DNA of 13,657 nt. Origin: Promethearchaeota archaeon. Lineage in GTDB: Archaea; Asgardarchaeota; Lokiarchaeia; Sigyniarchaeales; SOKP01. The notes below the pieces were generated by a model. That model ran no database searches. It was not told the origin of the DNA and saw nothing but the letters and a program-made list of their open reading frames with translations. How positions within the stretch are numbered: position 1 is the first letter of the stretch; the number at the start of each line of letters is the position of its first letter. This document shows positions 3,786-13,634 of this stretch, piece by piece. A program made the translations under genes and the position numbers. Location: positions 1-13,657 of the forward strand of contig JAFGGO010000116.1 in assembly GCA_016930515.1 (NCBI GenBank), written 5' to 3'.

Positions 3786-6700
3786 GTGAAAAATCAGATG
3801 GGAGAAAATTTAGATTTAGACGACCTAAAAAGGCAGCTACGGGATCAATATAACAGGCGTAATCATGGTCTCACGATCGAATTAGCAAATAAAATACTCG
3901 AACAAGAGCCAGATTATTACGATGCCTTGGAATATAGGCTTGTCGCTACTTATGGATTAAAACAAGACGCTCCAGAGGCTGAAAAGGAACAATTAAGTCC
4001 AAGATATAAGGAGCTTGCCCTAGCAATGATAAAATACATGGAAGAAAAGGGCGATTTTACCAGAGATTCTCGCAAGCAATACACATATGTCGTAGCACGA
4101 AACAATTTAGGTTGGGAAGAAGTACTTCACGGTAAAACAGAAGAAGAGTGGGAAACGGGTTTGAAACACGTTGAAGTAGGATTGAAATACGACCAGCCGT
4201 CCTTTGCCTTGGATACAAAAATACGATTGCTTTTAAAATTAGAAAGAAATAGCGAGGCTTACGAAATAGCCCTTTCAATGCTAAGAAAAAACGAAAAGGA
4301 GAGAGACGTTCAGGACATAAAGTCAAACGCCGAATTCATCGAATGGGTTAAGAAGAAGCATCCCACTGATGTTTTAATCGTTGATAAGCACGAGGGCATG
4401 AACTTAAGAGATAAAGCTTTCCTGCAGGAGTTAGAATCACTTCTAAAAAAAACCTTAAAGGAGATTGAACCAGATAAAACGGGAAGGCAAGGATTTAGAA
4501 CCGTTAATGATAGAATAACTTCTCTTTTCTTGCGCGATTCCTACAATTTAGAGTCAATTCCAGAGAGTATAGGAAATTTGGATCACTTAAAAGAACTAGA
4601 AATAACATATAACGGTAATTTAAGGACATTACCTGAAAATCTAGGAAATTTGAAAAATCTCGAAGCACTAACGATAAAGAATTGCTACCTACTTAATAAT
4701 CTCCCAGAATCGCTTGGCAATTTAGAAAATCTGAGATGGTTTACGATAGATTACCTTAGAAGTGTGGAAACCTTACCAAACACGATTGGAAACCTGAAGA
4801 ACCTTGAAACCCTCTATATTAATCAAATTGGATCTAATTCTCTTCCAGAATCCATGGAAAGATTGAAAAAATTGTCCACCCTCAAGATTAAGAATTGTTC
4901 TTTCGAAAGCTTACCAGAAGGAATATGTGAATTATCTTCTTTAACCAATTTGGAAATAAAACACTGCAATTCCCTTCGCACGCTCCCCAAAAACATTGCG
5001 AAGCTTAAATCGTTAGAGATCCTAATTCTCGAAAATCTTTCTGGCATAGATTCGCTACCCGAGAGTTTTGGCGAATTAGAAAAATTGAGCAAATTAGAGA
5101 TGACGAAACTAAACGAGCTTCCCGTATTACCAGAATCTATTGGAGAATTACATTCGTTAGGGTTTTTAACCATTAATCGCTGTAGGGGCCTGAAAGATCT
5201 TCCTGAAAGCATCGGTAATCTCCCAAACCTTCGAGAATTTAGGCTAATAGAATGTAATGGTATTAGTACTATTCCAAACAATTTTTCAAAACTCCAAAAG
5301 CTTGAAACGATTGAAATTAATTCGCTTTCAGACGATTTTAAGGGATTCTCGGATAATTTTGGCAATTTAAAATCCCTTAATAAAGTTTCAATATCCAGTT
5401 GTAATGGTATCGAAAGCCTACCAGACACAATAGATAGTTTACATTACCTAAAAGATTTAGAGATTTCTTCTTGTCGCAAATTAAAAAACCTACCAAGAAG
5501 TATTGGTGGTATAACATCTCTTGTTAAGCTATCTCTATATGAATGTGATAATATTGAATTATTACCCGTTGAACTTACGGATCTTGCTTCCTTGGAAGAA
5601 ATACGCCTTGATAATTGTCAAAAATTATGTAAATTACCTGATTCTTTTACCAAGCTCCAAAATCTACGTAGAATATACATCAACAAGTGCCCAAGCTTAC
5701 AACTTATCCCTGACGAATTTGTGAATTTAAAATCAATAGAGGAAATAATTATTTTAAGATCGGGATTGAAAGCCCCGCCAGACAAGTTAAATTCTTTTAA
5801 GAACCTCAAAAAGCTAGAACTTTCGGGGAACATTTATTCTCCAGATAAAGACGAGAAGATGGAACTTATAAAAAAAAGGTGGAAAAAATACGAAAATCCC
5901 TGGAGGCGTTTTATCCTCTGGGGTTGGGACGAAAAAAATAATCCATCTTACATTATTCTTTATGGAAAGCACGATTTTATGGGGCTTGAAATTAATATTA
6001 ATGACAAAGAAATTGAGGATTTTGCTCAACTGAAAGTGCAATCTCTTCCGGAAGGAAAACGATTAGATATTAAACCAGGGGTCTATAATGTGCTTCAAGA
6101 CGATGTGAAGTACTCCTGCTACGCCGTTTTTCATGGTAAAAAAGGCCACTTACCTTCTTTCCAAGCTATAAAGGTCATTCAAAAAAGCCATTACGATTAT
6201 AAGACGCGATCATATTCTTACGATGACCCTGAAATGTATTTCAAAAAAGATATTTCATATCATTGGGGATGGAAGACGGATAAAAAAAAAATGTACAAGG
6301 AATTTAATAACCTCAAGGAATCGAAAAAAATCGTGCTCCCATATTTCGCACTCCTTTCTTACAAGCAACTTGTAAATAAGATTCATGAGCAGAAGTTCCA
6401 AATCAAGGGTTTCAGGATTGCAAGCTCTCTAAACGAGATACTGCAATTACCCAAAGATAAAGCAGAATACATCGAAATTATTGTAAAAACAATAAACCAC
6501 CAAAACATATACATAAGAAAAAAATACCTTTTCGAGCTGCTTTCAAAAGGACCTTCTAAAGATATATTGGCATCAATTATTAAAGTTGGTAGCTCAGAAC
6601 TCATTTCTGGGATATTTTTAGAGTTAGCTAAGCTCCAAAACCCCATTTTATTAAACGAGGCCCAGAACATTATCGACGGCTCGATTGAATGGACAGATGA

Positions 6701-8825
6701 AAGTTTCGCTCGTGGTGTTAAGAGATGCGCAACAATATATGTTAATTCCCTTGATTCAGAAAAAGTAAAACAGAGATCTAATTGGATTCTTAAGAATCTC
6801 CCAAACGCGGATCTTCATTTGAAAAAATTGAGAGGGGAAGAAATTCCTCCAGAAAAGCGATTAACGGGAGCTACTTATCGTAAATACGCACAGCAAGGTT
6901 ATTTGAATGACAATTATAAATATTACGATTACAATTCGAGAGATTATATATACGAAACTAATCGATACGATATAGGAGCATACTCCAACGGAATGATTTT
7001 AAATATAATCGAGTTTAAAAACACGATTCAAGAGGCAGAGATTTATCAGTTATCAAACATAATTGGCAAGATTGCTTATTATATTGATGCTCCTCGAATC
7101 GTTTATTATCTCAAGGGAAGCAAGAAAACCAAGGCTCTACGCTATTTCCAGAGTTACCTAAGGAGGATAATAAGTTCTATTGCAGATAAAGACGAATTAA
7201 AATTCATGGAAATAATGAAAGATTTTTTAACAAGCTTTAAACCCGAAGATTCTGTTAGCAAGTACGCTAATGATTTTTCCTCTAATACTCTCTTGAGATT
7301 TTTCATGTACCACGATTTTTCAGAAATTGGTCCAGATAGAAAAACAACGACTTGGGAGGAACGAGCGGAATATTATAGCGTGCCAAAAATGATGAGATTA
7401 ACGGGGCGTCGAGAATTTAAAAAGGAGATCTGGGACAGGCACTTAGATGTTGTTTTGGAAATCGTTTTAAACGCTCAGATAGACTCTATTAAGAAAGCTT
7501 GCTATTATATCTTAAAAGAAACATCAAACCTTCAAGAATTTGTCGATAAAATGTCCTTTAAACAAATCATCCAACTGGCTCTTGCGTCCTACGAACCGTT
7601 AGCAGGAATGTTCCTAAAAATTTTAAACGAAAAGATGGAAAAAATAGAAACCTTCGATCCCGAATTGATGCTCGCATTAATTGGATCTTCTGACGATCAA
7701 ATGCAACACCACGCCATGGATTTTTTCAACAGAACAAACGGATCTTTTGCACCAGAGACAGTCGCAGATTTTATCTTTTTAGACAACTTAGATCGTTGGT
7801 TTGAACTCTTTCAACAGAATTTAACGGCACTAAAGGGAGATAATTTTGCACAATTCCTTGAGAGCATTATCAATAAAATTCCAGAATTTATTGATAAAGA
7901 AATATCCATTTCACAGGAAACAAAAGATTTGTTATCAAATTCAACGCAGGAGATGGAATATTTATCGCCTTCGGTAAAAAAAGAGTTAATAACTGTTATA
8001 ATTGAAGTTATTTCAAAACAAAGAAGTATTCCTGATTGGACTATGAACTTACTTGAGGAGTGTATTTTTTCTATACCATATGAGGATTTAGATCTTGCGT
8101 TAAAAGGAATTGATATTGATTCTTTCAAGGGCGCATTTACTCAGAAAAGGATAATCTTTGCAATACTAAAGGCGATAAAAAACAATCAATTACCTTCGAA
8201 TCCTGATATCATTGATCTTTTAGATATTGGTACTGCTAAAATAATTAACACTTTTCTCACGATGGTGTCAAGGAACAAGGAAGAACTATCCAACCGTTTT
8301 TCGACTTTGCTTGTGATGTTCGAGTCGGAGGTTATATCGCTAAATCTTCACGCAGCCGATGTGTTTAATGAGTTGCCTCGTGAAAAACAAAAACGGTTGC
8401 ATTCAATGGTAATTGATTCTCCAGTTCATAGAGCCTATGAGTTTGGCCTTAAGAAGCTAGAAAGCGTTTATGGGGATTTAATTCCTGACGACATGATAAT
8501 TCAAATGCTAGAACACGGATCGAGCGAGGTAAAAGCCTATGTTTCCCGTAAAATTAACAATATAATCGAAAACTTAGGGAACGGCGATAAGAACCTTTTC
8601 ATGTATTATCTTCACACCTTATTATTACTACCAAACAAGCATGCAAAAAGTAAAAATAAGATTTACAATGTGTTACCCAAGTTTGCGTTGAAATATCAAG
8701 ATAAAATAAAGGAAATAGAACGAATGTTATTAGATATCGGCGGTTCTAATGTAATCGCCGATTCCGAGCGAGCGTTAGTGGCGCTTGCTAAAATAAAAAA
8801 GGAGGTACAAATAAATGCAAGTTAA
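3786..8825 (+). CDS. Large multidomain protein: N-terminal TPR-like helices, ~18 leucine-rich repeats and a ~990-aa C-terminal region ending in ARM/HEAT-like helical repeats; putative retron accessory/sensor
   Basis: aa ~1-190 are TPR-like (ANKILEQEPDYYDAL; NNLGW...ALDTKIRLLLKL). aa ~244-682 are LRRs. The region after M692 has a different, aromatic-rich character and then becomes Leu/Ile/Glu-rich amphipathic helices; the ARM/HEAT call is by eye only. Start is GTG 3786 or ATG 3798. Confidence 0.8.
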   Translation: MKNQMGENLDLDDLKRQLRDQYNRRNHGLTIELANKILEQEPDYYDALEYRLVATYGLKQDAPEAEKEQLSPRYKELALAMIKYMEEKGDFTRDSRKQYTYVVARNNLGWEEVLHGKTEEEWETGLKHVEVGLKYDQPSFALDTKIRLLLKLERNSEAYEIALSMLRKNEKERDVQDIKSNAEFIEWVKKKHPTDVLIVDKHEGMNLRDKAFLQELESLLKKTLKEIEPDKTGRQGFRTVNDRITSLFLRDSYNLESIPESIGNLDHLKELEITYNGNLRTLPENLGNLKNLEALTIKNCYLLNNLPESLGNLENLRWFTIDYLRSVETLPNTIGNLKNLETLYINQIGSNSLPESMERLKKLSTLKIKNCSFESLPEGICELSSLTNLEIKHCNSLRTLPKNIAKLKSLEILILENLSGIDSLPESFGELEKLSKLEMTKLNELPVLPESIGELHSLGFLTINRCRGLKDLPESIGNLPNLREFRLIECNGISTIPNNFSKLQKLETIEINSLSDDFKGFSDNFGNLKSLNKVSISSCNGIESLPDTIDSLHYLKDLEISSCRKLKNLPRSIGGITSLVKLSLYECDNIELLPVELTDLASLEEIRLDNCQKLCKLPDSFTKLQNLRRIYINKCPSLQLIPDEFVNLKSIEEIIILRSGLKAPPDKLNSFKNLKKLELSGNIYSPDKDEKMELIKKRWKKYENPWRRFILWGWDEKNNPSYIILYGKHDFMGLEININDKEIEDFAQLKVQSLPEGKRLDIKPGVYNVLQDDVKYSCYAVFHGKKGHLPSFQAIKVIQKSHYDYKTRSYSYDDPEMYFKKDISYHWGWKTDKKKMYKEFNNLKESKKIVLPYFALLSYKQLVNKIHEQKFQIKGFRIASSLNEILQLPKDKAEYIEIIVKTINHQNIYIRKKYLFELLSKGPSKDILASIIKVGSSELISGIFLELAKLQNPILLNEAQNIIDGSIEWTDESFARGVKRCATIYVNSLDSEKVKQRSNWILKNLPNADLHLKKLRGEEIPPEKRLTGATYRKYAQQGYLNDNYKYYDYNSRDYIYETNRYDIGAYSNGMILNIIEFKNTIQEAEIYQLSNIIGKIAYYIDAPRIVYYLKGSKKTKALRYFQSYLRRIISSIADKDELKFMEIMKDFLTSFKPEDSVSKYANDFSSNTLLRFFMYHDFSEIGPDRKTTTWEERAEYYSVPKMMRLTGRREFKKEIWDRHLDVVLEIVLNAQIDSIKKACYYILKETSNLQEFVDKMSFKQIIQLALASYEPLAGMFLKILNEKMEKIETFDPELMLALIGSSDDQMQHHAMDFFNRTNGSFAPETVADFIFLDNLDRWFELFQQNLTALKGDNFAQFLESIINKIPEFIDKEISISQETKDLLSNSTQEMEYLSPSVKKELITVIIEVISKQRSIPDWTMNLLEECIFSIPYEDLDLALKGIDIDSFKGAFTQKRIIFAILKAIKNNQLPSNPDIIDLLDIGTAKIINTFLTMVSRNKEELSNRFSTLLVMFESEVISLNLHAADVFNELPREKQKRLHSMVIDSPVHRAYEFGLKKLESVYGDLIPDDMIIQMLEHGSSEVKAYVSRKINNIIENLGNGDKNLFMYYLHTLLLLPNKHAKSKNKIYNVLPKFALKYQDKIKEIERMLLDIGGSNVIADSERALVALAKIKKEVQINAS
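4515..5831 (+). repeat. Protein-level leucine-rich repeat array, ~18-19 units of 23-25 aa
   Basis: Consensus LPxxIGxLxxLxxLxIxxCxxLxx. I counted 18 LP/IP-type anchors from IPES to PPDK. The DNA copies are diverged. Confidence 0.95.
8799..8806 (+). promoter_or_regulatory. Shine-Dalgarno-like site for the SWIM gene
   Basis: AAGGAGGT ends 8 nt before the ATG at 8815, inside the 3' end of the upstream gene. Confidence 0.6.
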
Positions 8826-10578
8826 TTACAAGTACGCAAGTCCTTCAATGTGTCTTCAACAAGAAGACCAGACCATATTAGGGTTAAGTCCTGACCTATC
8901 GAGGGAAGAAAAAGTATCGTTTAGGGGAAAACTAAAACACCCCTTAATATTCAGAGACGCCATGTTAATGTTGCGCGAGATCGTCATATCAGATATGAGC
9001 CAAAAAAAGAAAGAAAGATTAGAGTTTTTTGCGTGGCTCGAAGACGAGATCGAAAGACGCGTTCTAAAGCACGAAAAATACTTACCCGGAGTAAGAGAAA
9101 GCTTGAGAGACGAAATGGAAGGTTTGCTTAAAGAATTAGCAGAAAAGGACGATTTATTAAAAAACCTTGCCAATGCGAGAGCCAATTTAAATAAGGAAAT
9201 TTATGACACGGGCGCCTGGAAAGAATATAACAAGCTCGAAAGGAAGTTCTGGAATTTCATTCGAAACCGCGATAAAGACTTGTGGTTCGTACTAGATCCC
9301 GTGATTACGGTTCATCCAGACCAAGTATCTTTTGAAGCGTTTTCATTGGATGAGTCCACTTATGGATGCTTATCGGTTACGATGGACGAATTTATTTTAG
9401 TACAAGAACCCCAATTAGGAACGACGAATATCGATTTTTCTGCCAAGTTATCAAGAGAGATGGAACGGTTTAGAACTTACACGAATGTCGAGTTATCCGT
9501 AAATCCAGAAGGTTTTACTGTAGAAACGGGAGTAATGCCCGAATATGTGGAAAAAAAGATAGACTTGCCCGAAACATGGATAAAAGGATTTAACCAAGTA
9601 TCAGCTGCTGCAAGTCTGGGAGGAGTTGATCTCGAACTATCTCCCGTTGACATGTATGACATTTGTTCGTTCTTACGAAGGCACAAGGCACGCAAAAGCC
9701 CTCGATACATGAAATGGATATTAGAACCCGGAAAACACGTGAAGATCGTTCTCGAACCATGGGGTTCGAAATTGGAATTAAAGGCGGTTTACAGCGGAGA
9801 TAGAATACGGGAAGAAAAAGTATGGGGAAGACGGCGCTGGTTAGTAATGGAAAAGATAATACCTATCGCATCATCATTCAAGGTAAGACTTTTAGGATTT
9901 GGTATGCCTCAGTTTATCGTAGCAGACTTGGGCACGATGAAGATGACAATAGGTTTTACTTCCTGGTCTTCAAACGATTGGGTGAAGGGTACGGCATTTA
10001 ATATTTTAGGGGGATACATAGGCGAGGGGAACTACGAAGACATATACACTTTGTTAAAAAAACGTCGCCTTTTGTCGTTAGAAGAGATCAACAAAGAGTT
10101 ATCAGATTTCACGAAAAGTAAAAACAAATCGGGAGTAGGCATGGTACTTAAGCGTGGAGAGGCTTATTATGATCCAATCGTTGATGCCGTAAGATTTCGA
10201 CAATTGTGCAATTCTCCCATTCCCAAAGAATTGTACGAAACTACCACGATGGAACTAAGCGTGCAAGAACATTTGGAAGAAGGAATGAAAGGCTTTACGT
10301 TGAAACAAACTCAAGAAAAAGATTTTATTGCCACGCACGCCTTGAAAAAAGGAAAGCGAAAGGAAAATCTTACCAAAACTGAAATGACAATCAATCAAGA
10401 TGGGCAAATCACCAAAGTAAAATGTGATTGCAAGCAATTCAAAAAAGGGGCGAGAAACATTTCCGATCCGTGCGCTCACCTTCTTTCCTTGTATATTACC
10501 ACATCGAAATTTTTAAACTTGGAATTAAAGCCAGATAGAGAATATACCATAAATGACATTTTGGAGATGTTATTATGA
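8815..10578 (+). CDS. SWIM zinc-finger domain protein, putative retron type XIII accessory
   Basis: C-terminal CxC-x13-CxH motif (CDCKQFKKGARNISDPCAH, 10423-10479) and an N-terminal coiled coil. The core blocks LDPVITVHPD..SFEAFS.DES.YG, GTTNIDFS, KKIDLPETWIKGF.QV and WGRRR match my recollection of the SWIM family found beside Mx162-like RTs. Confidence 0.85.
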   Translation: MQVNYKYASPSMCLQQEDQTILGLSPDLSREEKVSFRGKLKHPLIFRDAMLMLREIVISDMSQKKKERLEFFAWLEDEIERRVLKHEKYLPGVRESLRDEMEGLLKELAEKDDLLKNLANARANLNKEIYDTGAWKEYNKLERKFWNFIRNRDKDLWFVLDPVITVHPDQVSFEAFSLDESTYGCLSVTMDEFILVQEPQLGTTNIDFSAKLSREMERFRTYTNVELSVNPEGFTVETGVMPEYVEKKIDLPETWIKGFNQVSAAASLGGVDLELSPVDMYDICSFLRRHKARKSPRYMKWILEPGKHVKIVLEPWGSKLELKAVYSGDRIREEKVWGRRRWLVMEKIIPIASSFKVRLLGFGMPQFIVADLGTMKMTIGFTSWSSNDWVKGTAFNILGGYIGEGNYEDIYTLLKKRRLLSLEEINKELSDFTKSKNKSGVGMVLKRGEAYYDPIVDAVRFRQLCNSPIPKELYETTTMELSVQEHLEEGMKGFTLKQTQEKDFIATHALKKGKRKENLTKTEMTINQDGQITKVKCDCKQFKKGARNISDPCAHLLSLYITTSKFLNLELKPDREYTINDILEMLL

Positions 10579-12035
10579 CCGAAAACACAAAACAAGACTA
10601 TAGAACGCTAATAAATCAAATGGGCAAGAAAGAATTTACTATCATGAAAATGCAGGAATACGGCTTTTGGCCAAAAGATCTGCCAACTCCTTACGAAAAG
10701 CAATTAAACGAAACGCCTGAACAGTATTCCAAGCGTAAAGCGCTCGTGGAGGATTATAAAAGCATTATAGAAAGAATTTCAAAATTATACAAGGAAAAGC
10801 AAGAAATTAACGATAAACTAAGAGATTTGCGAAAAAAATACGACGAAACTTGGGACATCGAAAGAATAAGAAAAGATATCGCCCAAACGATCATGAAAGA
10901 ATCCATTGCTCGTCGCACAGAAAAAAAAAAGCAACGGGAACTCGAAAAACACGCGAAATCAGAAGCGTGGAAAAAGAAAAAAGCAGAACAAATCATTTTT
11001 ATTGGAAAGGGTTATTCTTCCTTTTTATACGATAACGAGACGGACCAGCCAAAACTTGAGTTGCAAGGCTTACCTGTCATAAAATCTGATATAGACTTAG
11101 CTAATTTTTTGGAAATAGATTATAAAAAGCTTAGGTTTTTGTCCTATCATCGTGATGTCGTTACTGTAGACCATTATCACCGTTACACCATTCCAAAGAG
11201 AAAAGGGGGAATGAGAAACATTGCTGCTCCAAAACCCATTTTAAAATCAGTTCAAAGAAAGATATTGGAAGATATTTTAAACAAATTTTCTCTTTCCCAA
11301 CAGGCTCATGGATTTATAAAGGAAAGATCTATCTTGAGTGGAGCGCTAGCACACAACATTCAACCCGCCCTGGTCATTAACATGGACATTGAGAATTTTT
11401 TTCCAACCATTTCTTTTGAACGAGTTCGGGGCATGTTTAAATCAGCGGGATATTCAGGATTCATTTCTTCGTTATTAGCAATGTTATGTACTTACTGCGA
11501 GCGCGTGTCAATAGAAGTAAAAAATAAAACAAGATTCATAGCAACTACAAAACGAATTTTACCTCAAGGTTCTCCTGCAAGCCCGATGATAACTAATATT
11601 ATTTGCAGGAGGTTGGACCAAAGGTTGAACGGACTCGCAAGTAAATTTGGATTTACTTACACGAGATATGCAGACGATATGAGCTTCAGCATAAACGACG
11701 AGACTAATGTGAAAGTGGGAAGATTCTACGGATTAGTTTCAAAAATCGTGAAAGACGAGGGATTTGAAATTAATAAAGAGAAAACACGGTTTTTAAGGAA
11801 AAATAACAGGCAATCCATCACGGGAGTAGTTGTCAACAACGAGAAACTTGGAGTTAATCGAATGTGGATGAGACGGTTTAGGGCTGCGATTCACAACGCA
11901 AGCAAGTTAAGATCAAATGGAGATTTGCCAATTGAAGTAAAAAGGGAGCTTTCGGGCATGGCTTCGTGGGTTAGAAGCGTTAATCCCGAACGTTACAAGA
12001 AATTAATAGAGACCGCAATGGAGGTAATTAAATAA
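10575..12035 (+). CDS. ret: Retron-type reverse transcriptase (Mx162/Sa163-like) with a ~150-aa charged N-terminal extension
   Basis: IPKRKGG.R.IAAP, AHGF...RSI, region X GALAH (canonical NAxxH; 11340-11354), DIENFFPTI, LPQGSPASP, YTRYADD (YADD at 11667-11678), region Y ITGVVVN (canonical VTG; 11817-11825) and RAAIHN. No maturase or endonuclease domain. The start overlaps the upstream stop (ATGA), with GGAG at 10563-10566. Confidence 0.95.
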   Translation: MTENTKQDYRTLINQMGKKEFTIMKMQEYGFWPKDLPTPYEKQLNETPEQYSKRKALVEDYKSIIERISKLYKEKQEINDKLRDLRKKYDETWDIERIRKDIAQTIMKESIARRTEKKKQRELEKHAKSEAWKKKKAEQIIFIGKGYSSFLYDNETDQPKLELQGLPVIKSDIDLANFLEIDYKKLRFLSYHRDVVTVDHYHRYTIPKRKGGMRNIAAPKPILKSVQRKILEDILNKFSLSQQAHGFIKERSILSGALAHNIQPALVINMDIENFFPTISFERVRGMFKSAGYSGFISSLLAMLCTYCERVSIEVKNKTRFIATTKRILPQGSPASPMITNIICRRLDQRLNGLASKFGFTYTRYADDMSFSINDETNVKVGRFYGLVSKIVKDEGFEINKEKTRFLRKNNRQSITGVVVNNEKLGVNRMWMRRFRAAIHNASKLRSNGDLPIEVKRELSGMASWVRSVNPERYKKLIETAMEVIK

Positions 12036-12064
12036 CTCTCATTTCAGGAAAAGAGAATAATTAT

Positions 12065-12251
12065 TTTCCTTGGCCTTCATGCCTCGGCGTTGCGTTGCGG
12101 TCGAAACTTGCCAAGCACACGACACCTGGACGAGCGCAACTCGCATCGCTGGTGTCCTAAATTTAAAACTGTAGGATCCATTTTAATAAATTTAGGACAA
12201 ACTGCTTTGCTAAAGTGTTGCATCTAGTTATGAGAATTGATAGCAAGGAAA
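12065..12251 (+). ncRNA. Putative retron ncRNA (msr-msd), copy 1
   Basis: Terminal IR TTTCCTTG (12065-12072) / CAAGGAAA (12244-12251), extendable to 12055/12257 with a bulge. Candidate branch G at 12073. Perfect 13-bp stem 12153-12165 / 12187-12199 with a 21-nt loop. Confidence 0.75.
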
Positions 12252-12278
12252 TTATTCCTTCCTTTTCCAATATTTATT

Positions 12279-12324
12279 AAAAAAAAAAAAATTTATTATA
12301 AATCAATTCCTCATAATTATAATA
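12279..12324 (+). promoter_or_regulatory. Putative archaeal promoter (A-rich BRE + TATA-like TTTATTA) for ncRNA copy 2
   Basis: An A13 run (12279-12291) is followed by TTTATTATA (12292-12300), starting 33 nt before the TTGGATTTCTTG arm. The same motif and spacing occur before copy 3. Confidence 0.45.
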
Positions 12325-12519
12325 TTGGATTTCTTGGCCTTCACGCCTCGGCGTTGCGCCGCGGTCGAAACTTGCCAAGCACACGACACCTGGACGAGCG
12401 CAACTCGCATCGCTACGCTGATCGTGCGCATTGAAAATGGAGCCTACGGTTATGCGACGATCAGCGCGCTCTGCTGAAGTGTCACGTCCAGTTGTGAGAA
12501 TCGTTAGCAAGAAATCCAA
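12325..12519 (+). ncRNA. Putative retron ncRNA (msr-msd), copy 2
   Basis: Perfect 12-bp terminal IR TTGGATTTCTTG (12325-12336) / CAAGAAATCCAA (12508-12519). Candidate branch G at 12337. 15-bp stem with one bulge, 12416-12431 / 12452-12466, and a 20-nt loop. Confidence 0.8.
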
Positions 12520-12540
12520 AATTCTCTATATCATTATAGA

Positions 12541-12583
12541 CACAAGAAGATTTATTAACTATCAAATCCTCATAATTATAATA
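12541..12583 (+). promoter_or_regulatory. Putative archaeal promoter for ncRNA copy 3
   Basis: Purine-rich AAGAAGA followed by TTTATTA (12551-12557), 33 nt before the TTGGATTTCTTG arm. It shares TCCTCATAATTATAATA with the copy 2 leader. Confidence 0.45.
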
Positions 12584-12584
12584 T

Positions 12585-12775
12585 TGGATTTCTTGGCCTT
12601 CACGCCTCGGCGTTGCGCCGCGGTCGAAACTTGCCAAGCACACGACACCTGGGCGTGCGCAACTCGCGTCGCTACATATAGTGTCTGATTGAAAATGGAG
12701 CCTTCGGTGATCAGACACTATATGCGCTCTGCTGAAGTGTCACTCCCAACTGTGAGAAAGTTAGCAAGAAATCCA
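12585..12775 (+). ncRNA. Putative retron ncRNA (msr-msd), copy 3
   Basis: Perfect 11-bp terminal IR TGGATTTCTTG (12585-12595) / CAAGAAATCCA (12765-12775). Candidate branch G at 12596. Perfect 15-bp stem CATATAGTGTCTGAT (12675-12689) / ATCAGACACTATATG (12710-12724) with a 20-nt loop. Confidence 0.8.
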
Positions 12776-12779
12776 TTAA

Positions 12780-12795
12780 TTTTTTCTTTTTATTT
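12780..12795 (+). terminator. Putative archaeal oligo-T terminator of the ncRNA array
   Basis: TTTTTTCTTTTTATTT lies 4 nt after the last IR arm and just before the stop codon of the convergent gene. Confidence 0.5.
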
Positions 12796-12803
12796 AATAA
12801 AAA

Positions 12804-13634
12804 TTAATTCAGTTTTATGAGATGTGCAAAATTGTTGTAAAAGACTTTCTGAAGCGTGCTTTTTTCTAAATTCAAACAGATAATCTTATTAATTTCAATA
12901 TCGGGAGGATTTGCGGCGGGAGCGTCAGAACCGAAAATCACTCTGTCCTCACCCATTGCTTTTATGAGAGATAATATCCCAAACGGGATGGACACGCTCG
13001 TTTCGAAATAGACATTTGGAATGTTCGAATCGTGAGCAAAAAAACGGACTAAACTCACGCAATATTCCATCGAAAAAGCCGCATGACCAATAATTAATTT
13101 TAGCTCCTTATATTTTTTTGCAAGGGCGTGATAATCTTTAACGCGAGCTTGTTTTTGAAAGAAAAAGCCAGAACCAGAGTGAATGTATAATGGAACATCG
13201 TGTTCTACGCAAAATTCTGCTAATTGATAAAAATCGTGTGGTGCCTTGAGAAAATCGATATAAGGGTGCGTTTTAACACCTTTAAATCCATAATCGACGA
13301 TATATTTTTCTAAAAAATCCCAATCATCTTCAGAAGCGATTTTTGGATTAAACCAGAAGAATCCATAAATGCGTTTTGGATACTCCTTAATGAGTGCCCT
13401 GACCTGCTCGTGGTCGTATTGTTGTTTTGGAACGAATTGATTCAATAATTCTTTAATATCGAGGATTTTTCCGCTTTGTTCGATGGCATTCATATTTGCG
13501 GCTTGATTCAAGGTAGTTACGGCAGCTTTCTCAATTCCGTGCTTATCCATTAATTGAATAAGGGACTCTTCTCTTGGTTTGAATCGCCCTGCGTGGTGCA
13601 TGTGAGCGTCAAAGATTTTAAATTCATTAGCCAT
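12804..13634 (-). CDS. Amidohydrolase family protein (metal-dependent TIM barrel, Amidohydro_2-like)
   Basis: N-terminal DAHMH (HxH), GFKGVKTHP, VPLYIHSG, IIGHA, NVYFETS, G.DRVIFGSD.P and a C-terminal KVFYNN. Confidence 0.88.
   Translation of the reverse strand: MANEFKIFDAHMHHAGRFKPREESLIQLMDKHGIEKAAVTTLNQAANMNAIEQSGKILDIKELLNQFVPKQQYDHEQVRALIKEYPKRIYGFFWFNPKIASEDDWDFLEKYIVDYGFKGVKTHPYIDFLKAPHDFYQLAEFCVEHDVPLYIHSGSGFFFQKQARVKDYHALAKKYKELKLIIGHAAFSMEYCVSLVRFFAHDSNIPNVYFETSVSIPFGILSLIKAMGEDRVIFGSDAPAANPPDIEINKIICLNLEKSTLQKVFYNNFAHLIKLN

What the first reader, a model, noticed from the sequence alone, without database searches (positions are those of the whole stretch)
12153..12724. msd-like hairpins have replaced stem sequences but conserved length, position and loop
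The stems are TGTCCTAAATTTA (13 bp, perfect), CGCTGATCGT-g-CGCAT (15 bp + bulge) and CATATAGTGTCTGAT (15 bp, perfect). They are mutually dissimilar even though flanks are ~96% identical and the loops of copies 2 and 3 are 18/20 identical (TGAAAATGGAGCCTaCGGTt vs TGAAAATGGAGCCTtCGGTg). Swapping both arms while keeping complementarity is hard to reach by point drift. It suggests diversifying selection or a dedicated replacement mechanism (template switching, msDNA-mediated conversion), making the stem a variable, spacer-like dsDNA payload in a constant scaffold.
Basis: partly seen in the sequence, partly recalled or inferred. Interest (0 to 1): 0.82.

Follow-up and report, generated by a model that had tools for sequence, protein, structure and literature searches.

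The report
Retron template array with private stems
Three tandem template-RNA genes follow one type XIII retron reverse transcriptase in an Asgard archaeon; their differing hairpin stems are old, stably inherited variants produced by ordinary paired substitutions, not by a special stem-swapping mechanism.

Summary
The three hairpins are real: 13 bp, 10+5 bp with a bulged G, and 15 bp. Each sits at the same place in one of three tandem msr-msd ncRNA units. The units lie downstream of a complete type XIII retron (WGR/LRR protein, SWIM protein, RT) in an Asgard (Promethearchaeota-like) genome.

"Mutually dissimilar" is overstated. All three stems share a GT(G)C/G-AC core. Copy 2's stem resembles the single-unit stems of Clostridium orthologues more than it resembles its own neighbours.

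Stems are not hypervariable. In a syntenic relative (RT 86% identical) 4-fold degenerate sites differ by 53%. The copy-3 stem differs there at 3/31 positions and copy 2's 3' arm at 2 of its 15 bases. In nine further orthologous pairs, stem divergence stays below 4-fold-site divergence, apart from one saturated pair at parity. Changes are gradual and compensated.

The same design recurs widely: near-identical scaffold, divergent distal msd stem, divergent a1/a2. I found it in arrays of 2-3 units in four other Asgard-class loci and in 6 of 52 bacterial type XIII loci with a detectable unit.

I found no natural retron ncRNA array described in the papers I could search. This scan has already reported such arrays on other DNA (e1-4178345, e1-2128880).

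Verdict: an interesting natural multi-template retron. A dedicated replacement or spacer-like mechanism is not supported.

The parts
3786..8825 (+). Accessory protein (1679 aa): N-terminal LRR region plus a WGR_XIII-like part
   Evidence: Pfam LRR families. PADLOC WGR_XIII E 3.4e-23 over residues 1113-1395.
8815..10578 (+). SWIM-type retron type XIII effector/partner protein (587 aa)
   Evidence: PADLOC SWIM_XIII E 4.4e-180, residues 1-563.
10575..12035 (+). Retron reverse transcriptase, type XIII (486 aa)
   Evidence: PADLOC RT_XIII E 4.8e-163. Pfam RVT_1. Closest named relatives are Promethearchaeota and Clostridium RTs.
12055..12262 (+). ncRNA unit c1 (a1 12055-12072, a2 about 12244-12257). 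The most diverged unit.
   Evidence: Alignment A1/A5. Its a1/a2 covary relative to c2/c3. 16% non-stem differences from c2.
12153..12199 (+). c1 msd hairpin: 13-bp perfect stem and a 21-nt loop that is the family loop in inverted orientation
   Evidence: I11; folds; loop motif found only on the opposite strand.
12292..12299 (+). TTTATTAT, a TATA-box-like element 29 nt upstream of the a1 of c2 (inferred archaeal promoter)
   Evidence: Read from the sequence. The same element and spacing occur before c3. Not tested.
12321..12523 (+). ncRNA unit c2 (a1 12321-12336, a2 12508-12523); carries the ancestral-type stem
   Evidence: I5. Fold z -3.7. Its stem matches Clostridium L035 at 20/31 and G067 at 18/31, but c1 at only 6/26.
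12417..12465 (+). c2 msd hairpin: 10+5 bp with a bulged G and a loop holding a cUACGg tetraloop
   Evidence: The bulged-G core is conserved in Clostridium, L225, L226, L227 and G003_u2.
12551..12558 (+). TTTATTAA, a TATA-box-like element 29 nt upstream of the a1 of c3 (inferred)
   Evidence: Read from the sequence. Not tested.
12580..12778 (+). ncRNA unit c3 (a1 12580-12595, a2 12765-12778)
   Evidence: I13. Fold z -5.0. Positional orthologue of L225_B and G003_u2, the last unit before the syntenic amidohydrolase gene.
12675..12724 (+). c3 msd hairpin: 15-bp perfect stem and a loop holding a cUUCGg tetraloop
   Evidence: I7. Differs at 3/31 arm positions from L225_B.

Best explanation
The window holds a complete type XIII retron followed by a natural array of three msr-msd template-RNA genes. 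Each gene has its own a1/a2 closing helix, probably its own promoter, the same RT-recognised scaffold, and a private distal msd stem.

Inferred mechanism: one RT primes on the conserved G after a1 of each unit and copies the msd. This would give up to three msDNA species that differ only in the distal stem.

The stems differ because the units are old paralogues. Both the c2 type and the c3 type already exist in relatives with RT 73-86% identity. In this RNA family only pairing is constrained in the lower stem and in two upper pairs. The bulged-G core, the apical UNCG loop and the scaffold are sequence-constrained. Stems therefore diverge by ordinary compensated substitutions, more slowly than neutral sites.

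The scaffold stays nearly identical through purifying selection and occasional inter-unit gene conversion. Conversion that enters only one arm breaks the hairpin, as in L225_A. That is why distinct stems persist. No dedicated stem-replacement process is needed.
For: Identity of the system: PADLOC RT_XIII, SWIM_XIII and WGR_XIII. a1/a2, the msr hairpin and a long-range lower msd helix all show compensatory changes across 12 units (20 of 40 pairs).

Arrays recur. G003 has 2 units, G060 has 3, G138 has 3, L225 has 2. Six bacterial loci also have arrays, out of 52 with a detectable unit.

Differences between array-mates concentrate in the stem arms.

Slow, per-position inheritance: c3 against L225_B has stem 3/31, scaffold 6/78, spacer 22/47, and RT 4-fold sites 71/135. 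The L225_A 3' arm matches c2 at 13 of the 15 arm bases read by hand; one search counts 3/15 differences over alignment columns 163-181.

Other orthologues (stem against 4-fold sites): L079/L085 0.14 against 0.24; L067/L103 0.02 against 0.49; L060/L101 0.33 against 0.53; L053/L054u2 0.10 against 0.71. Vibrio shows 0 stem changes at 0.15, Chitinophaga 0 at 0.27, C. tetani variants 0 at 0.10.

c2's stem is closer to Clostridium orthologues than to its array-mates. Gradual intermediates occur in G060.

Gene conversion: the 5' arm of L225_A is identical to that of L225_B (0/16), while the 3' arms differ at 9/15. That unit no longer folds canonically.
Against: - No expression or msDNA data exist.
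- After duplication some copies changed faster than their sisters. L054u1 differs at 12-15/50 while L054u2 keeps the L053 stem at 5/50. c1 is at chance similarity to everything. This hints at more than clock-like drift.
- L046 u1 and u3 differ by a clustered 9-bp block on each arm, which looks like one event.
- Within-array scaffold identity (c2-c3, 3/78) is higher than between orthologues (6-7/78). So dating the duplications from scaffolds is unreliable.
Confidence: 0.72

Rival explanations
1. Functional repertoire. After duplication, selection favoured new stem sequences, so the array encodes msDNA isoforms with different specificities (for example baits or sensors for different phage nucleases, methylases or DNA-binding proteins). 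These are then kept by purifying or balancing selection.
For: Arrays with private, fully paired stems arose repeatedly in distant lineages. Extra units keep scaffold and pairing, so they are not simply decaying. Divergence after duplication is asymmetric (L054u1 against L054u2; c2 against c1/c3). Unit-specific stems are preserved between G000 and L225 despite 53% 4-fold-site divergence.
Against: The same stem positions also vary among single-unit orthologues. The a1/a2 helix varies too. No rate clearly exceeds the neutral rate. No target-like matches were found. Pairing constraint alone explains the conservation.
Confidence: 0.22
2. Dedicated or semi-dedicated replacement: template switching at the palindrome, or msDNA/cDNA copied back into the array (retro-conversion), rewrites both arms at once.
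For: The c1 loop is inverted. This is what annealing of an msDNA to the 'wrong' strand, or recombination between the arms, would produce. The L225_A conversion tract (about 48 nt) lies inside the msd. L046 u1 and u3 differ by a clustered 9-bp block.
Against: Stems are stable over long distances and change pair by pair. The one clear conversion event replaced only one arm and broke the hairpin. Inversion between short inverted repeats and ordinary gene conversion explain these events without the RT. The differences are not adenine-specific, so this is not DGR-like.
Confidence: 0.05
3. Spacer-like acquisition: stems are captured from invaders, like CRISPR spacers.
For: Only the formal resemblance: a constant repeat with a variable insert.
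Against: Stems are homologous to one another and to orthologues. There is no exact match in the host genome. The c2 16-mer has 28 viral hits, all in contigs of median 61% GC with no extension; the c3 15-mer has 28 hits against 50 for its reversed control; three 23-24-nt bacterial stems have 0 hits. Unit number is 1-3, with no polarity.
Confidence: 0.02
4. The extra units, especially c1, are non-functional or decaying duplicates, and their odd stems reflect relaxed constraint.
For: c1 has the most scaffold changes (16%), a shorter AT-rich stem, an inverted loop lacking the UNCG tetraloop and the weakest fold z-score (-2.2). L225_A is a clearly broken unit. G138 keeps 3 units beside an RT with an in-frame TGA.
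Against: c1 still has a perfect 13-bp stem and covarying a1/a2. c3 and its orthologues are conserved as well as c2.
Confidence: 0.15

Closest known systems
Type XIII retrons (Mestre et al. 2020, PMC7736814; clade 10; Mx162, Mx65, Sa163, Ne144)
   Same: RT, SWIM protein and WGR/helical-repeat protein match the type XIII models. The ncRNA has an a1/a2 closing helix, an msr hairpin and a long msd hairpin. The bacterial type XIII ncRNA HMM even detects the G060 unit.
   Different: Here the ncRNA genes lie downstream of the RT, in three tandem copies with private stems. The host is an Asgard archaeon. The accessory protein carries a large LRR extension. The described members have, to my knowledge, one msr-msd upstream of the RT. 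No array is mentioned in PMC7736814, PMC10849725 or PMC13712802.
Engineered 'multitron' retron arrays (10.1101/2023.07.17.549397)
   Same: Several msr-msd units in tandem serve one RT, each giving its own RT-DNA.
   Different: Those are synthetic Eco1-based constructs with designed donors. This array is natural, conserved in relatives, and varies only in a short distal stem.
Clostridium type XIII retrons (C. tetani, C. botulinum and others)
   Same: RT 60-66% identical. The ncRNA family lies downstream of the RT and has the same bulged-G stem core and the same loop.
   Different: A single unit per locus in the five Clostridium-type loci examined. The Asgard lineage expanded it to 2-3.
Diversity-generating retroelements and CRISPR arrays
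   Same: An RT-linked repeat, or a repeat with variable inserts.
   Different: There is no TR/VR pair, no adenine-specific changes and no cas genes. The 'inserts' are homologous hairpin arms, not acquired spacers.

Membership tests
Type XIII retron | RT of the type XIII (clade 10) lineage | tested here: met
   PADLOC RT_XIII E 4.8e-163, far better than any other retron RT model.
Type XIII retron | Adjacent SWIM zinc-finger (cluster 114) protein | tested here: met
   PADLOC SWIM_XIII E 4.4e-180. The gene overlaps the RT start.
Type XIII retron | Preceding WGR / helical-repeat accessory protein | tested here: met
   PADLOC WGR_XIII E 3.4e-23, but only over residues 1113-1395 of 1679. The N-terminus is LRR.
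Type XIII retron | Contiguous ncRNA with a1/a2 inverted repeats enclosing msr and a long msd hairpin | tested here: met
   a1/a2 pairs found. Covariation in a1/a2, the msr hairpin and the lower msd helix. Location is downstream of the RT, not upstream.
Type XIII retron | Production of branched msDNA primed from a conserved G | not testable with these tools
   A conserved GG follows a1 (invariant in A5).
Diversity-generating retroelement | Template/variable repeat pair with adenine-specific differences and a DGR-clade RT | tested here: not met
   The RT is retron type. Differences between units affect all four bases and are compensated on the opposite arm.
CRISPR-like spacer array | Variable inserts derived from foreign DNA | tested here: not met
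   Stems are homologous among units and orthologues. Viral hits are at chance level only.

The most novel reading that the evidence does not exclude
Type XIII retrons naturally run as multi-template systems. Tandem ncRNA genes give a small repertoire of msDNAs whose private distal stems are specificity determinants, each guarding against or sensing a different invader factor. The stems are kept distinct for long periods because partial gene conversion is lethal to the hairpin. In this window the system works in an Asgard archaeon after transfer from Clostridia.
Probability: 0.2. Interest if true: 0.8.

Novelty: new variant of a known kind. Interest (0 to 1): 0.5.

Why it matters
Retrons are normally described as one RT with one template RNA. 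Multi-template arrays had to be engineered for multiplex genome editing.

A natural, evolutionarily maintained array shows three things. One retron RT tolerates several templates in cis. The alignments show which parts of the type XIII msd are free to vary (the lower stem and two upper pairs) and which are fixed (the bulged G, the UNCG loop and the lower helix). The array also gives a ready-made design rule for orthogonal units.

It documents a complete retron of clostridial type in Asgard archaea.

For this specific finding, the result matters as a correction. The striking 'replaced' stems need no new mechanism.

Tried and rejected
- Rfam scan of 11900-12900: only chance-level hits.
- Metagenome scan with a 22-nt scaffold pattern: six hits, all chance matches in GC-rich DNA.
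No read-level polymorphism or expression test was possible, and read laying was not used.
- SRP RNA searches to place the host gave nothing. Ribosomal protein S8e and four actin-family genes did place it.
- Automatic helix picking on array alignments chose the wrong helices for several arrays. I replaced it with hand-defined arms.
- A regex for bacterial units missed many. I replaced it with nhmmer profiles.
- No ncRNA unit was found near the ten Lachnospiraceae RTs (L036-L045) with either profile. Their template is elsewhere or too diverged.
- Stems against the host genome: no exact copy, and near matches at chance level.
- Stems against viral contigs: chance level.
- I considered whether c1-c3 could be an assembly artefact and rejected it. 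Independent assemblies (G003, L225, G060, G138, isolates and MAGs of several phyla) show the same design.

Full report
**What is there**

The window carries three co-oriented, overlapping genes that match the three proteins of a type XIII retron:
- 3786-8825: an LRR plus WGR_XIII-like protein.
- 8815-10578: SWIM_XIII, E 4.4e-180.
- 10575-12035: RT_XIII, E 4.8e-163.

Directly after the RT stop come three direct repeats with a period of about 260 nt (family D1). Each repeat is a complete retron-style ncRNA unit. It has a terminal a1/a2 inverted repeat (for example 12321-12336 with 12508-12523), a conserved msr region with a small hairpin, a long composite msd helix, and an apical hairpin.

The whole genome holds only these three copies.

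The genome has ribosomal protein S8e and four actin-family genes, the best at 440 bits, and is 35% G+C. The closest named RT homologue is from a Promethearchaeota MAG. Dozens of Clostridium RTs follow at 60-66% identity. The host is therefore an Asgard archaeon, and the retron is of clostridial type.

**Check of the observation**

- c1: 13 bp perfect.
- c2: 10+5 bp with one bulged G.
- c3: 15 bp perfect.

They are stable both as RNA and as DNA. The loops of c2 and c3 are 18/20 identical. They contain a UNCG tetraloop, cUACGg and cUUCGg, so the variable loop base is the N.

The scaffold is very similar. c2 and c3 differ at 3/78 positions in the msr plus lower helix.

Two corrections are needed.

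First, the stems are not unrelated. Aligned on the loop, the units of this RNA family share a core: 5'-GT(G)C on one arm and G-AC on the other, with a bulged G. The family here comprises Asgard relatives plus Clostridium tetani, C. botulinum and two Clostridiaceae MAGs. Above the core, a C-G pair closes an upper stem with two variable pairs. Below it lies a variable lower stem of 7-10 bp. c2 has this core, c3 has it without the bulge, and c1 keeps TGTCC/GGACA.

Second, the c1 loop is the family loop in reverse-complement orientation.

**Is the stem hypervariable?**

No. The best test is L225, a syntenic contig of another assembly. Its RT is 86% identical, and the same amidohydrolase gene lies downstream.

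Between it and the window, 4-fold degenerate sites differ at 71/135 in the RT and 33/69 in the amidohydrolase. The spacer after the last unit differs at 22/47. The last unit's stem (c3 against L225_B) differs at only 3/31 arm positions. Those changes are one compensated pair and one bulge. This is the same level as the scaffold, 6/78.

The 3' arm of L225_A matches the 3' arm of c2 at 13 of its 15 bases, read by hand. One search counts 3/15 differences over alignment columns 163-181.

In G003 (RT 73%) and in L226 (71%), the c3-type stem is still recognisable.

In bacterial type XIII retrons the result is the same. Stem divergence is below 4-fold-site divergence in the orthologous pairs tested; one saturated pair (L097/L104, 0.62 against 0.59) is at parity:

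| Pair | Stem divergence | 4-fold-site divergence |
|---|---|---|
| L079/L085 | 0.14 | 0.24 |
| L067/L103 | 0.02 | 0.49 |
| L060/L101 | 0.33 | 0.53 |
| L053/L054u2 | 0.10 | 0.71 |
| Vibrio penaeicida (two strains) | 0 changes | 0.15 |
| Chitinophaga (two species) | 0 changes | 0.27 |
| C. tetani variants | 0 changes | 0.10 |

C. tetani against C. botulinum shows six differences, all compensated, at 0.39.

Stems therefore evolve by paired substitutions, more slowly than neutral sites.

**Why the array-mates still look so different**

The units are old paralogues. Both stem types are present in G000, L225 and G003.

c2's stem is closer to single-unit orthologues than to its neighbours, although its scaffold is closest to the neighbours:
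- Clostridium L035: 20/31.
- G067: 18/31.
- c3: 13/30.
- c1: 6/26.

The scaffold is held by strong purifying selection. It is also occasionally homogenised. In L225_A the 5' arm and half the loop are identical to L225_B (0/16), while the 3' arm is still c2-type (9/15 different from B). The a1 is c1-like and the a2 is c2-like. That mosaic no longer folds as a retron ncRNA. This shows that inter-unit recombination happens and that it destroys a hairpin when it covers only one arm. That is a simple reason for distinct stems to persist beside near-identical scaffolds.

The a1/a2 helix, which also needs only pairing, diverges between units in the same way.

**Generality**

Arrays of two or three units with this design are found in:
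- G003 (2 units), G060 (3), G138 (3) and L225 (2), all within the same archaeal class or its close relatives.
- Six bacterial loci, located upstream of the RT: Aureispira, two Bacteroidota, Planctomicrobium, Hyphomicrobiales and Acidobacteriota. These are 6 of the 52 type XIII loci in which a unit was detected.

Across ten arrays, differences between array-mates fall in the stem arms at 249/674 positions, against 186/1889 elsewhere. The units are not independent, so the p-value is only indicative. Pairing is kept.

**What remains open**

Some duplicates changed faster than their sisters. L054u1 differs at 12-15/50, while L054u2 keeps the stem of its orthologue L053 at 5/50. c1 is at chance similarity to everything. 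L046 u1 and u3 differ by a clustered 9-bp block.

Selection for a new stem after duplication, or occasional block events, therefore cannot be excluded.

The c1 loop inversion and the L225_A tract are what msDNA-mediated conversion would also produce. Ordinary recombination between inverted or direct repeats explains them more simply.

No stem matches the host genome. Nor do stems match viral contigs beyond composition-driven chance.

**Comparison with what is known**

The proteins and the RNA architecture place this firmly in type XIII (Mestre et al. 2020, PMC7736814). I found no mention of natural tandem ncRNA arrays in that paper, in the retron census (PMC10849725) or in the SPIRE survey (PMC13712802). 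A full-text search for retrons with multiple ncRNAs found nothing. Only engineered arrays are described.

Earlier reports of this scan describe the same kind of natural type XIII array on other genomes (e1-4178345, e1-2128880). Within the scan, this is a repeat observation in a new host.

**Verdict**

The hairpins are retron msd stems. The array is a natural multi-template retron. The stem differences are old, heritable and compensated. They are not the product of a dedicated replacement or spacer-like mechanism.

Noticed in passing
window 12166-12186: The apical loop of unit c1 is the family loop in reverse-complement orientation. It lies between two copies of the self-complementary octamer TAAATTTA. 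The RNA of c1 therefore lacks the UNCG tetraloop that every other unit has.
   Followed up: partly
L225:1574-1773: In the closest relative, the first unit is a mosaic: c1-like a1, a 5' arm identical to the neighbouring unit, and a c2-like 3' arm and a2. It no longer folds canonically. This is direct evidence of recombination or gene conversion between units.
   Followed up: yes
whole genome G000 (C141:5376-5738; C111:101705-102817) and window 10575-12035: The host is an Asgard archaeon (S8e, four actin-family genes). The retron RT is 60-66% identical to many Clostridium RTs, which suggests inter-domain transfer. Only 8 of 161 genomes of the class carry it.
   Followed up: partly
window 12292-12299 and 12551-12558: A conserved TTTATTA(T/A) element lies 29 nt upstream of the a1 of c2 and of c3, at archaeal TATA-box distance. 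A similar AT-rich box lies before c1, at about 12025-12036. This suggests each unit has its own promoter.
   Followed up: no
window 3786-5900: The WGR_XIII-like accessory protein carries a long N-terminal leucine-rich-repeat region that is not part of the PADLOC model match (residues 1113-1395 only).
   Followed up: no
homologue list (P0008, P0063, P0065, P0081; P0009, P0010, P0037): Some close RT homologues are fused to a TerD domain (PF02342) or to a BRCT domain (PF00533).
   Followed up: no
L027 (G138:C21): G138 keeps three well-formed ncRNA units next to an RT gene that has an in-frame TGA and matches only residues 1-321.
   Followed up: no
window 12177-12182, 12421-12424, 12458-12461, 12709-12712: Each hairpin contains a GATC: GGATCC in the c1 loop, TGATCG in both arms of c2, and TGATCA at the loop-stem junction of c3. 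It is not conserved in L225_B, so it may be chance.
   Followed up: no
L036-L045: Ten Lachnospiraceae type XIII loci (RT 56-58% identical) show no detectable ncRNA unit within 4 kb on either side with either profile.
   Followed up: partly
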